64,000 bases of DNA from Escherichia coli (GCF_003334765.1 NZ_QOWT01000003.1), one strand, 5' to 3'; positions 1-2,972 are shown, counted from the stretch's first letter. Made by a program: the numbers.

Positions 1-2972
1 TATCCGCCGTGAGAAAGCGAACTCCAACATTTGTACTTCCCAGGTACTGCTGGCAAACATCGCCAGCCTGTATGCCGTTTATCACGGCCCGGTTGGCCTG
101 AAACGTATCGCTAACCGCATTCACCGTCTGACCGATATCCTGGCGGCGGGCCTGCAACAAAAAGGTCTGAAACTGCGCCATGCGCACTATTTCGACACCT
201 TGTGTGTGGAAGTGGCCGACAAAGCGGGCGTACTGACGCGTGCCGAAGCGGCTGAAATCAACCTGCGTAGCGATATTCTGAACGCGGTTGGGATCACCCT
301 TGATGAAACAACCACGCGTGAAAACGTAATGCAGCTTTTCAACGTGCTGCTGGGCGATAACCACGGCCTGGACATCGACACGCTGGACAAAGACGTGGCT
401 CACGACAGCCGCTCTATCCAGCCTGCGATGCTGCGCGACGACGAAATCCTCACCCATCCGGTGTTTAATCGCTACCACAGCGAAACCGAAATGATGCGCT
501 ATATGCACTCGCTGGAGCGTAAAGATCTGGCGCTGAATCAGGCGATGATCCCGCTGGGTTCCTGCACCATGAAACTGAACGCCGCCGCCGAGATGATCCC
601 AATCACCTGGCCGGAATTTGCCGAACTGCACCCGTTCTGCCCGCCGGAGCAGGCCGAAGGTTATCAGCAGATGATTGCGCAGCTGGCTGACTGGCTGGTG
701 AAACTGACCGGTTACGACGCCGTTTGTATGCAGCCGAACTCTGGCGCACAGGGCGAATACGCGGGCCTGCTGGCGATTCGTCATTATCATGAAAGCCGCA
801 ACGAAGGGCATCGCGATATCTGCCTGATCCCGGCTTCTGCGCACGGAACTAACCCCGCTTCTGCACATATGGCAGGAATGCAGGTGGTGGTTGTGGCGTG
901 TGATAAAAACGGCAACATCGATCTGACTGATCTGCGCGCGAAAGCGGAACAGGCGGGCGATAACCTCTCCTGTATCATGGTGACTTATCCTTCTACCCAC
1001 GGCGTGTATGAAGAAACGATCCGTGAAGTGTGTGAAGTCGTGCATCAGTTCGGCGGTCAGGTTTACCTTGATGGCGCGAACATGAACGCCCAGGTTGGCA
1101 TCACCTCGCCGGGCTTTATTGGTGCGGACGTTTCACACCTTAACCTACATAAAACTTTCTGCATTCCGCACGGCGGTGGTGGTCCGGGTATGGGACCGAT
1201 CGGCGTGAAAGCGCATTTGGCACCGTTTGTACCGGGTCATAGCGTGGTGCAAATCGAAGGCATGTTAACCCGTCAGGGCGCGGTTTCTGCGGCACCGTTC
1301 GGTAGCGCCTCTATCCTGCCAATCAGCTGGATGTACATCCGCATGATGGGCGCAGAAGGGCTGAAAAAAGCAAGCCAGGTGGCAATCCTCAACGCCAACT
1401 ATATTGCCAGCCGCCTGCAGGATGCCTTCCCGGTGCTGTATACCGGTCGCGACGGTCGCGTGGCGCACGAATGTATTCTCGATATTCGCCCGCTGAAAGA
1501 AGAAACCGGCATCAGCGAGCTGGATATTGCCAAGCGCCTGATCGACTACGGTTTCCACGCGCCGACGATGTCGTTCCCGGTGGCGGGTACGCTGATGGTT
1601 GAACCGACTGAATCTGAAAGCAAAGTGGAACTGGATCGCTTTATCGACGCGATGCTGGCTATCCGCGCAGAAATTGACCAGGTGAAAGCCGGTGTCTGGC
1701 CGCTGGAAGATAACCCGCTGGTGAACGCGCCGCACATTCAGAGCGAACTGGTCGCCGAGTGGGCGCATCCGTACAGCCGTGAAGTTGCGGTATTCCCGGC
1801 AGGTGTGGCAGACAAATACTGGCCGACAGTGAAACGTCTGGATGATGTTTACGGCGACCGTAACCTGTTCTGCTCCTGCGTACCGATTAGCGAATACCAG
1901 TAATTCACTGATTCGACTATTTTCTAAAGGCGCTTCGGCGCCTTTTTAGTCAGATGACAAAGTACAAAAGTGCTCAGACAGTCCCCTCGCCCCTTTGGGG
2001 AGAGGGTTAGGGTGAGGGGAACAGGCCGGCACTGGCGCGAATATTTACCCTCACCCCGGCCCTCTCCCTGAAAGGGCGAGGGGGAAAAGCGTGCCAACAT
2101 TGAAGATTGAGCCAGTTTGTTAGCAATCTCAAAGATACGTCAACGAATTAATTTTTCTCGGAAAAACAAATGGCTATAGCACTTGTGACTGGTGGCAGTC
2201 GCGGCATCGGGCGGGCAACTGCATTACTGTTGGCGCAAGAAGGGTATACGGTGGCGGTTAATTATCAGCAAAACCTCCACGCGGCGCAGGAAGTGATGAA
2301 CTTAATAACGCAAGCCGGTGGCAAAGCATTCGTGCTCCAGGCGGATATCAGCGACGAAAACCAGGTCGTTGCGATGTTTACAGCAATCGATCAGCACGAT
2401 GAACCGCTAGCAGCGCTGGTCAATAACGCCGGGATCTTGTTTACCCAGTGCACCGTTGAAAACCTTACCGCAGAGCGAATCAACCGAGTACTTTCCACCA
2501 ACGTGACGGGATATTTTCTCTGCTGCCGCGAGGCGGTAAAACGCATGGCGCTTAAAAATGGTGGCAGTGGCGGCGCTATCGTCAATGTCTCTTCGGTGGC
2601 CTCACGGTTGGGTTCGCCAGGGGAATATGTTGATTACGCGGCATCGAAAGGGGCGATTGATACGTTAACCACCGGACTATCGCTGGAAGTCGCCGCGCAG
2701 GGGATCCGCGTTAACTGCGTGCGGCCAGGGTTTATTTATACCGAAATGCACGCCAGCGGCGGCGAGCCTGGACGCGTCGATCGCGTTAAGTCGAACATCC
2801 CCATGCAGCGTGGTGGACAGGCAGAAGAGGTCGCGCAGGCCATTGTCTGGCTACTAAGTGATAAAGCCTCTTACGTCACGGGAAGTTTTATCGATTTGGC
2901 GGGCGGGAAATAAAACAGGGAAGTTGTCTGACCGGATGCAACAAGTATTGCATCCGGTACTTCATCGACTTA

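What the first reader, a model, noticed from the sequence alone, without database searches (positions are those of the whole stretch)
1983..2084. Inverted pair of boxC-like GC-rich repeats between gcvP and ygfF
Two units of about 37 bp in inverted orientation, each internally palindromic (gggagaggg / ggtgaggg cores), could form a large cruciform or stable RNA structure in the gcvP 3' UTR. The function of such repeats is poorly understood.
Basis: seen in the sequence. Interest (0 to 1): 0.3.

Follow-up and report, generated by a model that had tools for sequence, protein, structure and literature searches.

The report
Known BoxC repeat pair after gcvP
This is an ordinary, already catalogued copy of a short GC-rich repeated DNA element of E. 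coli (called BoxC, PIT, TMECO or HPGQ by different authors), lying just past the mapped end of the gcvP messenger RNA; it can fold very strongly, but published tests found no function for it.

Summary
Window 1984-2019 (+) and 2047-2082 (-) are two 36-nt units in inverted orientation, forming 39-nt arms that are 82% complementary. The predicted RNA hairpin is -76.6 kcal/mol (z = -6.9). The window is identical here to E. coli K-12 MG1655. The two units are TMECO #11 and #10 in Table 1 of Holder et al. 2015, and HPGQ 33 and 32 in Kaplan et al. 2016. Both papers describe the BoxC/PIT repeat family. The family is dispersed: 5409 of 5426 complete E. coli genomes have matches, with a median of 17 places per genome.

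The "gcvP 3' UTR" part is not supported. A canonical terminator hairpin (1926-1947) precedes the repeat, and published Term-seq places the primary gcvP 3' end at window 1948.

The pair is one copy of a roughly 184-bp composite repeat (1950-2133). Its spacer and flanks recur at other loci. Six aligned dimers show no compensatory base changes. Alleles in other strains are replacements or slippage deletions, not clean insertions. About 44% of genomes lack both the pair and ygfF.

Verdict: already known, low interest. It is most likely a structure-prone relic or selfish repeat with no dedicated function at this locus.

The parts
1926..1947 (+). gcvTHP intrinsic terminator: stem AAAGGCGC / GCGCCTTT, loop TTCG, T-run 1943-1947. 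It lies upstream of the repeat pair.
   Evidence: Read from the sequence. Inverted repeat I11. Term-seq primary gcvP 3' end at K-12 3,046,123 (-) = window 1948. The simple terminator scan missed it, probably because it takes the maximal stem, which absorbs part of the T-run.
1950..1982 (+). Left flank of the composite repeat (TCAGATGACAAAGTACAAAAGTGCTCAGACAGT), conserved at other dimer loci.
   Evidence: Alignments of dimers from six loci. BLAST similarity to other loci starts at window 1953. The strain haplotype breakpoint falls at 1949/1950.
1984..2019 (+). BoxC / PIT / TMECO unit, type A 'mm' (second loop TTA): CCCTCGCCCCTTTGGGGAGAGGGTTAGGGTGAGGGG. It contains a G3-N3-G3-N3-G3-N3-G3 tract at 1998-2018.
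   Evidence: Pattern match. Identical to TMECO #11, K-12 3,046,087-3,046,052 (-). HPGQ 33.
2020..2046 (.). 27-nt spacer (AACAGGCCGGCACTGGCGCGAATATTT), homologous between dimers at different loci.
   Evidence: Alignments.
2047..2082 (-). BoxC / PIT / TMECO unit, type B 'mm' (second loop CCG): CCCTCGCCCTTTCAGGGAGAGGGCCGGGGTGAGGGT on the - strand.
   Evidence: Pattern match. Identical to TMECO #10, K-12 3,045,989-3,046,024 (+). HPGQ 32.
2083..2133 (+). Right flank of the composite repeat (GGAAAAGCGTGCC...GCCAGTTTGTTAGCAATCTCAAA), conserved at other dimer loci.
   Evidence: Alignments. BLAST similarity to the yggL-yggN and yijF-gldA copies in other strains extends to window 2129-2133.

Best explanation
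The feature is one copy of the inverted-dimer form of the BoxC repeat of E. coli, also published as PIT element, TMECO triplex motif and HPG1/HPG2 G-quadruplex motif. It joins a type A unit to a type B unit and sits inside a ~184-bp composite repeat whose spacer and flanks recur at other loci.

Shown: its identity, its dispersed copy number, its position downstream of the mapped gcvP 3' end, its strong predicted folding, and its variability between strains.

Inferred: at this locus it has no dedicated regulatory role. It is a structure-prone relic, or a selfish product of an old dispersal process. It persists in intergenic DNA downstream of gene ends. Its main consequence is local instability, because its many short direct and inverted G/C repeats promote replication slippage and allele replacement. 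In the minority of transcripts that read through the gcvP terminator, or in any ygfF transcript that starts upstream of it, the RNA would fold into a ~36-bp hairpin. That hairpin could incidentally block 3' exonucleases or attract RNase III.
For: Identity: the window equals K-12 MG1655 here. The units match the family consensus. They are listed by coordinate in Holder 2015 Table 1 (#10, #11) and in the Kaplan 2016 table (HPGQ 32, 33).

Dispersal: 5409 of 5426 genomes have matches, with a median of 17 places per genome and a range of 1-31. There are 83,704 chromosomal places against 57 on plasmids.

Composite unit: the spacer and flanks are homologous at gcvP-ygfF, fepB-entC, alx-sstT and hrpB-mrcB in K-12, and at yggL-yggN and yijF-gldA in other strains.

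Not in the main mRNA: the terminator is at 1926-1947 and the Term-seq 3' end is at window 1948.

No RNA-type selection: 36 conserved pairs with 0 compensatory changes. The one variable stem position is uncompensated in 3 of 6 dimers. No Rfam family reaches its threshold.

Instability: a 6-bp deletion and point changes occur inside the units in strains that carry ygfF. A 75-bp deletion between two 9-bp direct repeats CCCTCTCCC occurs at alx-sstT in a strain whose genome holds only one match. Whole-segment replacements occur at gcvP-bglA, adk-hemH, yggL-yggN and yijF-gldA.

Literature: PIT elements showed no promoter or terminator activity and no in vivo effect. The triplex was seen in vitro but not by in vivo DMS footprinting. 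TMECO loci are more variable than control intergenic regions.
Against: The same 33-36-nt core occurs in many distant phyla. Its pattern-free positions are almost fixed (A in 139 of 140 units, T in 135 of 140). That conservation is hard to reconcile with pure junk and hints at a conserved recognition or structural constraint.

The sequence is very well conserved among E. coli copies despite the claimed instability.

No read-through or ygfF transcription start data were examined, so an RNA role for ygfF is not excluded.

The direction of the allele changes (gain or loss) could not be polarised, because no outgroup was available.
Confidence: 0.6

Rival explanations
1. RNA-level element. The long hairpin acts on transcripts in one of three ways: as a back-up barrier or stabiliser for gcvTHP read-through RNA (as REP elements do), as an RNase III site, or as part of a structured ygfF 5' leader.
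For: The predicted hairpin is very stable on both strands. 12 of the 14 K-12 sites examined lie downstream of at least one gene end. The pair lies 86 nt upstream of the ygfF start codon.
Against: The primary gcvP 3' end is upstream, at window 1948, and no 3' end is listed at or after the pair. No U-tract follows the hairpin in either orientation. No terminator or promoter consensus was found there. There is no covariation. The published tests found no terminator or promoter activity for PIT elements. About 44% of E. coli genomes lack the element together with ygfF.
Confidence: 0.15
2. DNA-structure switch. Each unit forms an intrastrand purine-motif triplex or a G-quadruplex when single-stranded, and this modulates replication, transcription or recombination at the locus.
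For: The unit has the C-stem / G-stem / G-stem layout. The free positions T, A and T fit a T-A*T triad. It also carries a G3N3G3N3G3N3G3 tract. Published CD and NMR show a triplex, and CD shows a G4/hairpin, for oligonucleotides of this sequence. DNA polymerase is blocked in vitro.
Against: With the complementary strand present only duplex was seen, and in vivo DMS footprinting did not detect a triplex. No in vivo effect was found in the functional study cited there. In the inverted dimer, a plain inter-unit hairpin competes with either structure.
Confidence: 0.12
3. Active non-autonomous mobile element (MITE-like). The ~184-bp composite, with the two inverted units as terminal-like inverted repeats, is mobilised by an unidentified enzyme.
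For: The composite unit has conserved flanks and spacer and occurs at different loci in different strains. Copy number ranges from 1 to 31 per genome. In distant genomes the core is embedded in lineage-specific conserved flanks, and inverted pairs occur there too.
Against: No clean filled-versus-empty site pair and no target-site duplication was found at any of the five loci compared. The alleles are segment replacements or internal deletions. Copies are almost absent from plasmids (57 of 83,761 places). Holder et al. found no association with transposons, phages or plasmids. No associated gene is known.
Confidence: 0.1
4. Protein-binding site, for example for RNA polymerase-sigma54 holoenzyme or a nucleoid protein.
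For: A genomic SELEX study lists an RpoN-holoenzyme peak assigned to the ygfF-gcvP spacer. TGGCAC occurs at 2091-2096 on the - strand.
Against: The only sigma54-like match in the region has 3 mismatches and points away from ygfF. The number of such matches in the window is at the chance level (303 found, 323 expected). Kaplan et al. found no known transcription-factor motif associated with the repeat.
Confidence: 0.03

Closest known systems
BoxC repeat = PIT element = TMECO triplex motif = HPG1/HPG2 G-quadruplex motifs of E. coli (first described in the 1990s; Maher and colleagues 2000 onward; Holder et al. 2015; Kaplan et al. 2016)
   Same: Everything. The sequence matches the consensus. The pair has the type A + type B inverted-dimer layout. 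It is intergenic. This exact locus is listed in the published tables.
   Different: Nothing of substance. I add that the dimer, with its spacer and ~30-50 nt flanks, behaves as one ~184-bp composite repeat, and that the mapped gcvP 3' end lies upstream of it.
REP / BIME elements of enterobacteria
   Same: Both are short GC-rich extragenic palindromes. Both are dispersed and often found as inverted pairs downstream of genes. In K-12, BIMEs occupy the very slots (yggL-yggN, yijF-gldA) that carry the BoxC composite in other strains.
   Different: There is no sequence similarity to the REP consensus. BoxC has about 20 copies per genome, against hundreds of REPs. No associated transposase such as a RAYT is known for BoxC, and no mRNA-stabilising role has been shown.
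Miniature inverted-repeat elements of bacteria (ERIC/IRU, Correia/NEMIS, RUP)
   Same: Size under 200 bp, an overall imperfect palindrome, intergenic location, and variable presence between strains.
   Different: No target-site duplication and no clean empty sites were found, and no cognate insertion sequence is known.
Intrinsic (Rho-independent) terminators
   Same: A GC-rich hairpin downstream of a gene.
   Different: No U-tract follows the hairpin and no mapped 3' end lies there. The real gcvP terminator is the separate small hairpin at 1926-1947.

Membership tests
BoxC / PIT / TMECO | Matches the consensus 5'-CCCTCNCCC N3-6 GGGNGAGGG N3 GGGNGAGGG-3' | tested here: met
   Two exact matches, at 1984-2018 (+) and 2048-2082 (-); 0 expected from shuffles.
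BoxC / PIT / TMECO | Intergenic location | tested here: met
   Lies between the gcvP stop (1903) and the ygfF start (2170).
BoxC / PIT / TMECO | Dispersed multi-copy family in E. coli chromosomes | tested here: met
   5409 of 5426 genomes have matches; median 17 places per genome; 21 in K-12-type records; 99.9% of places are chromosomal.
BoxC / PIT / TMECO | Inverted dimers combine a type A unit (loop TTA) with a type B unit (loop CCG) | tested here: met
   Unit A has TTA and unit B has CCG. This is the rule stated by Holder et al. for all five K-12 dimers.
BoxC / PIT / TMECO | This locus is listed in the published catalogues | tested here: met
   TMECO #10 at 3,045,989-3,046,024 and #11 at 3,046,087-3,046,052. 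HPGQ 32 and 33 between ygfF and gcvP. Coordinates checked against NC_000913.3.
BoxC / PIT / TMECO | The single strand forms an intrastrand triplex (or G-quadruplex) in vitro | not testable with these tools
   Published CD and NMR exist for oligonucleotides of this sequence type. Published in vivo DMS footprinting was negative.
G-quadruplex motif (HPGQ) | Four G3 tracts separated by short loops | tested here: met
   GGGAGAGGGTTAGGGTGAGGG at 1998-2018 (+) and GGGAGAGGGCCGGGGTGAGGG at 2048-2068 (-).
Intrinsic terminator | Hairpin immediately followed by a U-tract, with an RNA 3' end there | tested here: not met
   After 2084 the + strand reads GAAAAGCG. After 1983 the - strand reads ACTGTCTGAG. 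The scan found no site there. Term-seq lists no 3' end there.
Structured RNA family | Match to a curated covariance model, or compensatory base changes among copies | tested here: not met
   The best Rfam hits are generic microRNA-precursor hairpins far below their gathering scores (33.5 against 77.5 bits). 0 of 36 pairs show compensatory change.
MITE | Terminal inverted repeats and size under ~300 bp | tested here: met
   39-nt inverted arms within a ~184-bp composite.
MITE | Target-site duplication and clean empty sites in other strains | tested here: not met
   Five loci were compared (gcvP, yggL-yggN, yijF-gldA, alx-sstT, adk-hemH). All differ by segment replacement or internal deletion, and no duplication was seen.
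REP / BIME | REP consensus sequence | tested here: not met
   The K-12 alleles at yggL-yggN and yijF-gldA carry sequences of the GCCTGATGCG.../GCCGGATGCG... type. I recognise these as REPs from my own knowledge of the consensus. They do not align with the BoxC composite found in other strains.

The most novel reading that the evidence does not exclude
The ~184-bp composite (flank, unit A, spacer, unit B, flank) is the true unit of an element that is still exchanged or mobilised. It competes with BIMEs for the same intergenic slots and sits at the breakpoint of the ygfF presence/absence polymorphism. The near-invariant 33-36-nt core found across many bacterial phyla reflects recognition by a conserved protein not yet identified, for example a single-strand DNA transposase or a structure-specific nuclease.
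Probability: 0.08. Interest if true: 0.45.

Novelty: already known. Interest (0 to 1): 0.08.

Why it matters
It matters little as a discovery, because the element and this exact copy are already published.

The practical value is for annotation. The pair should be labelled as a BoxC/TMECO dimer. It should not be called a gcvP 3' UTR structure, because the mapped 3' end lies upstream of it. The small ORFs that read through it should not be called genes.

The locus is also a clear example of how such repeats mark variable intergenic DNA. The pair and ygfF are present together in about 56% of complete E. coli genomes and absent together in the rest.

Tried and rejected
- **Rfam scan with permissive thresholds.** Only generic long-hairpin microRNA models matched, far below their gathering scores. 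Rejected as meaningless.
- **Promoter and terminator consensus scan of 1800-2300.** Nothing was found at the repeat. The scan also missed the true gcvP terminator, which I read directly from the sequence.
- **Sigma54 -24/-12 pattern, prompted by a published RpoN SELEX peak.** Matches were at the chance level, and the only local one faces away from ygfF. Rejected.
- **ORFs across the repeat.** The 58-aa ORF (1924-2100, - strand) translates to a low-complexity read-through of the repeat (MLARFSPSPFQGEGRGEGK...). I judged it spurious and did not search for homologues. The 41-aa ORF (2007-2132, - strand) also overlaps the repeat; I did not translate it.
- **Covariation test on six dimers.** No compensatory changes were found, so it gives no support for a selected RNA structure.
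- **Search for empty sites and target-site duplications at five loci.** None were found.
- **Pattern scan of genome contigs.** It gave a view of distant phyla but no orthologous gcvP loci from outgroups, so gain versus loss could not be polarised.
- **Literature search for 'box C / RSA / IRU / BIME'.** It returned only irrelevant papers.
- **Dar and Sorek 2018 Term-seq supplements.** These are not held as text.

Full report
**The observation.** The sequence at 1983-2084 reads CCCCTCGCCCCTTTGGGGAGAGGGTTAGGGTGAGGGG, then a 27-nt spacer, then ACCCTCACCCCGGCCCTCTCCCTGAAAGGGCGAGGGGG. The repeat finder reports 39-nt arms at 1983-2021 and 2045-2083. They are 82% complementary and 23 nt apart. Each unit also has internal complementarity. 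Folding of 1975-2095 gives -76.6 kcal/mol as + strand RNA (z = -6.91), -73.7 as - strand RNA (z = -6.62) and -37.5 as single-stranded DNA (z = -5.34). No shuffle folded as well in any of the three runs. The feature is real and far beyond chance. It lies between the gcvP stop (1903) and the ygfF start (2170).

**What it is.** The window is 100% identical here to E. coli K-12 MG1655, reverse strand. Window position x corresponds to K-12 coordinate 3,048,071 - x. The published consensus for the 'TMECO' triplex motif is CCCTCNCCC-N3-6-GGGNGAGGG-N3-GGGNGAGGG. It matches exactly twice in the 64-kb window, at 1984-2018 (+) and 2048-2082 (-), with none expected by chance. Table 1 of Holder et al. 2015 (PMC4666352) lists these two units by coordinate and sequence. 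TMECO #11 is type A 'mm' at 3,046,087-3,046,052 (-). TMECO #10 is type B 'mm' at 3,045,989-3,046,024 (+).

The same paper states that this motif is the BoxC repeat described in the 1990s and the 'PIT' element of Maher and colleagues. Kaplan et al. 2016 (PMC5100583) list the same two units between ygfF and gcvP as HPGQ 33 (HPG1) and HPGQ 32 (HPG2), which they describe as putative G-quadruplex/hairpin switches. Petrillo and colleagues (PMC2267715) also recover BoxC as a known E. coli stem-loop family.

**Genome-wide copies.** A 121-nt query finds matches in 5409 of 5426 complete E. coli genomes. The median is 17 places per genome (range 1-31), with 21 in K-12-type records. There are 83,704 places on chromosomes and only 57 on plasmids. 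The refutation condition 'no other copies in the genome' is not met.

**Relation to the gcvP transcript.** A canonical terminator lies at 1926-1947: stem AAAGGCGC/GCGCCTTT, loop TTCG, then T5. This is 36 nt upstream of the first unit. In the Term-seq table of Adams et al. 2021 (PMC7815308, supplementary file 1) the 'primary' gcvP 3' end is at 3,046,123 (-), in the context ...GGCGCTTCGGCGCCTTTTTA|GTCAGATGAC. That is window 1948. The same sorted table lists no other 3' end before the bglA end at 3,045,144 (+), which is window 2927. The pair is therefore not part of the main gcvP 3' UTR. It would be transcribed from gcvP only by read-through.

The long hairpin is not followed by a U-tract on either strand. 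The consensus scan found no promoter or terminator at it. Holder et al. summarise the earlier functional study of PIT elements as follows: no promoter or terminator activity, no effect on RNA polymerase, DNA polymerase blocked in vitro only, and no in vivo effect.

BLAST similarity to other loci extends from window 1953 to about 2133. I aligned this locus with three other convergent K-12 dimers (fepB-entC, alx-sstT, hrpB-mrcB) and with dimers present in other strains at yggL-yggN (strain EM10-18-28) and yijF-gldA (strain MLI106K1). The spacer AACAGGCCAGCACTGGTGCGAATATTTA is homologous across them. So are a left flank (...CAGAyGATGACAAAG...AAAAGyGCTCrGAyAGT) and a right flank (GAAAAsCGTGCC...GCCAGTTTGTTAGCAATCTCAAA).

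The pair is therefore one copy of a composite repeat of about 184 bp (window 1950-2133). It is not two independent insertions. Across the K-12 sites I extracted, type A units carry a conserved ~14-nt 5' flank ending in GTC. Type B units carry a T-rich 5' flank of the form GCACsGTTTTCy. Several K-12 'monomers' continue either as the spacer (adk-hemH, aaeR-tldD) or directly as the right flank that normally follows unit B (pstA-pstB, fabI-ycjD). By eye this suggests they are deletion derivatives of the dimer. MAFFT did not resolve the relationship cleanly.

**Structure conservation.** The consensus fold of six dimers has 36 conserved pairs. None shows a compensatory change. The one variable stem position (N of CCCTCNCCC against N of the partner GGGNGAGGG) is unpaired in three of the six. 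No Rfam family reaches its threshold; the best hits are generic microRNA-precursor hairpins. The hairpin follows from an inverted repeat of a conserved sequence. Nothing indicates selection on RNA pairing as such.

**Variation among strains.** Only 3026 of 5426 genomes carry the K-12-like arrangement gcvP, pair, ygfF. In the others the match stops at window 1947-1949. Four such genomes were examined: O157:H7 F3113, ZH193, T2 and 1105. In all of them gcvP is followed directly by convergent bglA. In the two whose sequence I read (F3113 and ZH193), ygfF and the pair are replaced by about 115 bp that contains a REP-like hairpin. The left breakpoint coincides with the left end of the composite.

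Within ygfF-carrying strains the units themselves vary. Two strains show a 6-bp deletion at about 2003-2008, a G1989A change, and a 1-nt loss in the G run at 2080-2084.

- **alx-sstT.** Strain uk_P46212, whose genome holds only one match, keeps the composite's flanks. It has lost 75 bp between two 9-bp direct repeats CCCTCTCCC, which leaves a small hairpin. This is a textbook slippage product and matches the 'palindrome effect' of Holder et al. Another strain has an unrelated replacement of about 400 bp.
- **adk-hemH.** The K-12 segment holding a type A unit is replaced in other strains by about 55 unrelated bases.
- **yggL-yggN and yijF-gldA.** K-12 carries sequences that I recognise as REP/BIME elements exactly where other strains carry the BoxC composite, with sharp boundaries.

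I found a clean empty site or a target-site duplication at none of these five loci. The data fit decay and allele replacement by recombination better than active transposition. Without outgroups I could not polarise the events.

**Distribution outside E. coli.** These came from about 20 genomes: Polaromonas, Contendobacter, Xanthomonas, Stutzerimonas, Hyphomicrobiales, Pseudolabrys, Geobacter, Desulfobacterales, Nitrospirae, Chloroflexales, Leptolyngbya and a Bacteroidaceae MAG.

The three positions left free by the pattern are far from random in these 140 units. The C-stem position is T in 83 and G in 55. The first G-stem position is A in 139. The second G-stem position is T in 135. Eleven inverted pairs occur, and each genome has its own conserved flanks around the core. 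Wide occurrence has been reported before, so this is not new. It is the one observation that a pure 'junk' reading does not fully explain.

**Mechanism.** I commit to the following. The pair is a relic or selfish, structure-prone intergenic repeat with no dedicated function at this locus. Its demonstrable effect is local genetic instability through slippage between its internal direct and inverted repeats (confidence about 0.6). Its identity as BoxC/PIT/TMECO/HPGQ is essentially certain.

The rivals are:
- an RNA-level role on read-through transcripts or on ygfF transcripts (0.15);
- a DNA triplex or G-quadruplex switch (0.12);
- an active MITE-like element (0.10);
- a protein-binding site (0.03).

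A cruciform in duplex DNA seems unlikely given the 27-nt spacer and GC-rich arms. This is inference from general knowledge and was not tested.

**Verdict.** The feature is already known. Interest 0.08.

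Noticed in passing
window 1950-2969: The BoxC pair and the whole ygfF gene form one presence/absence polymorphism of about 1.02 kb. 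3026 of 5426 complete E. coli genomes have the K-12 arrangement. In the four others I checked (O157:H7 F3113, ZH193, T2, 1105), the gcvP terminator is followed by bglA. In the two read base by base, the interval is about 115 bp with a REP-like hairpin. The left breakpoint coincides with the left end of the BoxC composite.
   Followed up: partly
L006:1487-1722 vs L010:4625-4807; L007:1369-1698 vs L011:3659-3932: At yggL-yggN and yijF-gldA, some strains carry a BoxC composite 87% identical to window 1953-2133. K-12 carries REP/BIME-type sequence in exactly the same slot, with sharp boundaries. The two repeat families appear to be allelic at these sites.
   Followed up: partly
L134:401-500 vs L145 (alx-sstT): Strain uk_P46212, whose genome holds only one match, has lost 75 bp of the dimer between two 9-bp direct repeats CCCTCTCCC. 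The composite's flanks and a small hairpin remain. Strain Z1323CEC0013 has an unrelated replacement of about 400 bp at the same site.
   Followed up: yes
L012-L131 (genome-contig scan): The same 33-36-nt core occurs, often in dozens of copies and sometimes as inverted pairs, in genomes from many phyla (Polaromonas, Geobacter, Hyphomicrobiales, Nitrospirae, Chloroflexales, Leptolyngbya, a Bacteroidaceae MAG and others). Each genome has its own conserved flanks. The pattern's free positions are nearly fixed (A in 139 of 140 units, T in 135 of 140).
   Followed up: partly
L137, L142, L138 (adk-hemH, pstA-pstB, fabI-ycjD in K-12): Several single type A units are followed either by the start of the dimer spacer (GAACAGGCCCGCAC) or directly by the flank that normally follows unit B (GAAAACCGTG, GAAAAGCG). 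By eye this suggests that monomers arose from dimers by internal deletion. The automatic alignment did not settle it.
   Followed up: partly
window 2927-2960: The hairpin CCGGATGCAA-CAAGTA-TTGCATCCGG lies in the 56-nt ygfF-bglA spacer. Published Term-seq places the primary bglA 3' end at K-12 3,045,144 (+), which is window 2927, so it serves at least as the bglA terminator.
   Followed up: partly
outside the window, K-12 3,049,097 (-), gcvH-gcvP spacer: The same Term-seq table lists a strong 'orphan' 3' end after a hairpin GGGAGAGGATCAGGGTGAGG...CCTCACCCTCACTCTC. The G-rich arm resembles the BoxC G-stems.
   Followed up: no
window 1904-2169: A genomic SELEX study of RpoN holoenzyme (PMC8743547) assigns a peak to the ygfF-gcvP spacer. 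The only sigma54-like sequence there (2081-2096, - strand, 3 mismatches) faces away from ygfF, and such matches are at the chance level in the window.
   Followed up: partly
E. coli genome searches: Copy number differs sharply between strains. Records such as ZH193, uk_P46212 and Ecol_276 show only 1-3 matching places, against a median of 16-17. This agrees with the published note that some strains have a single copy.
   Followed up: no
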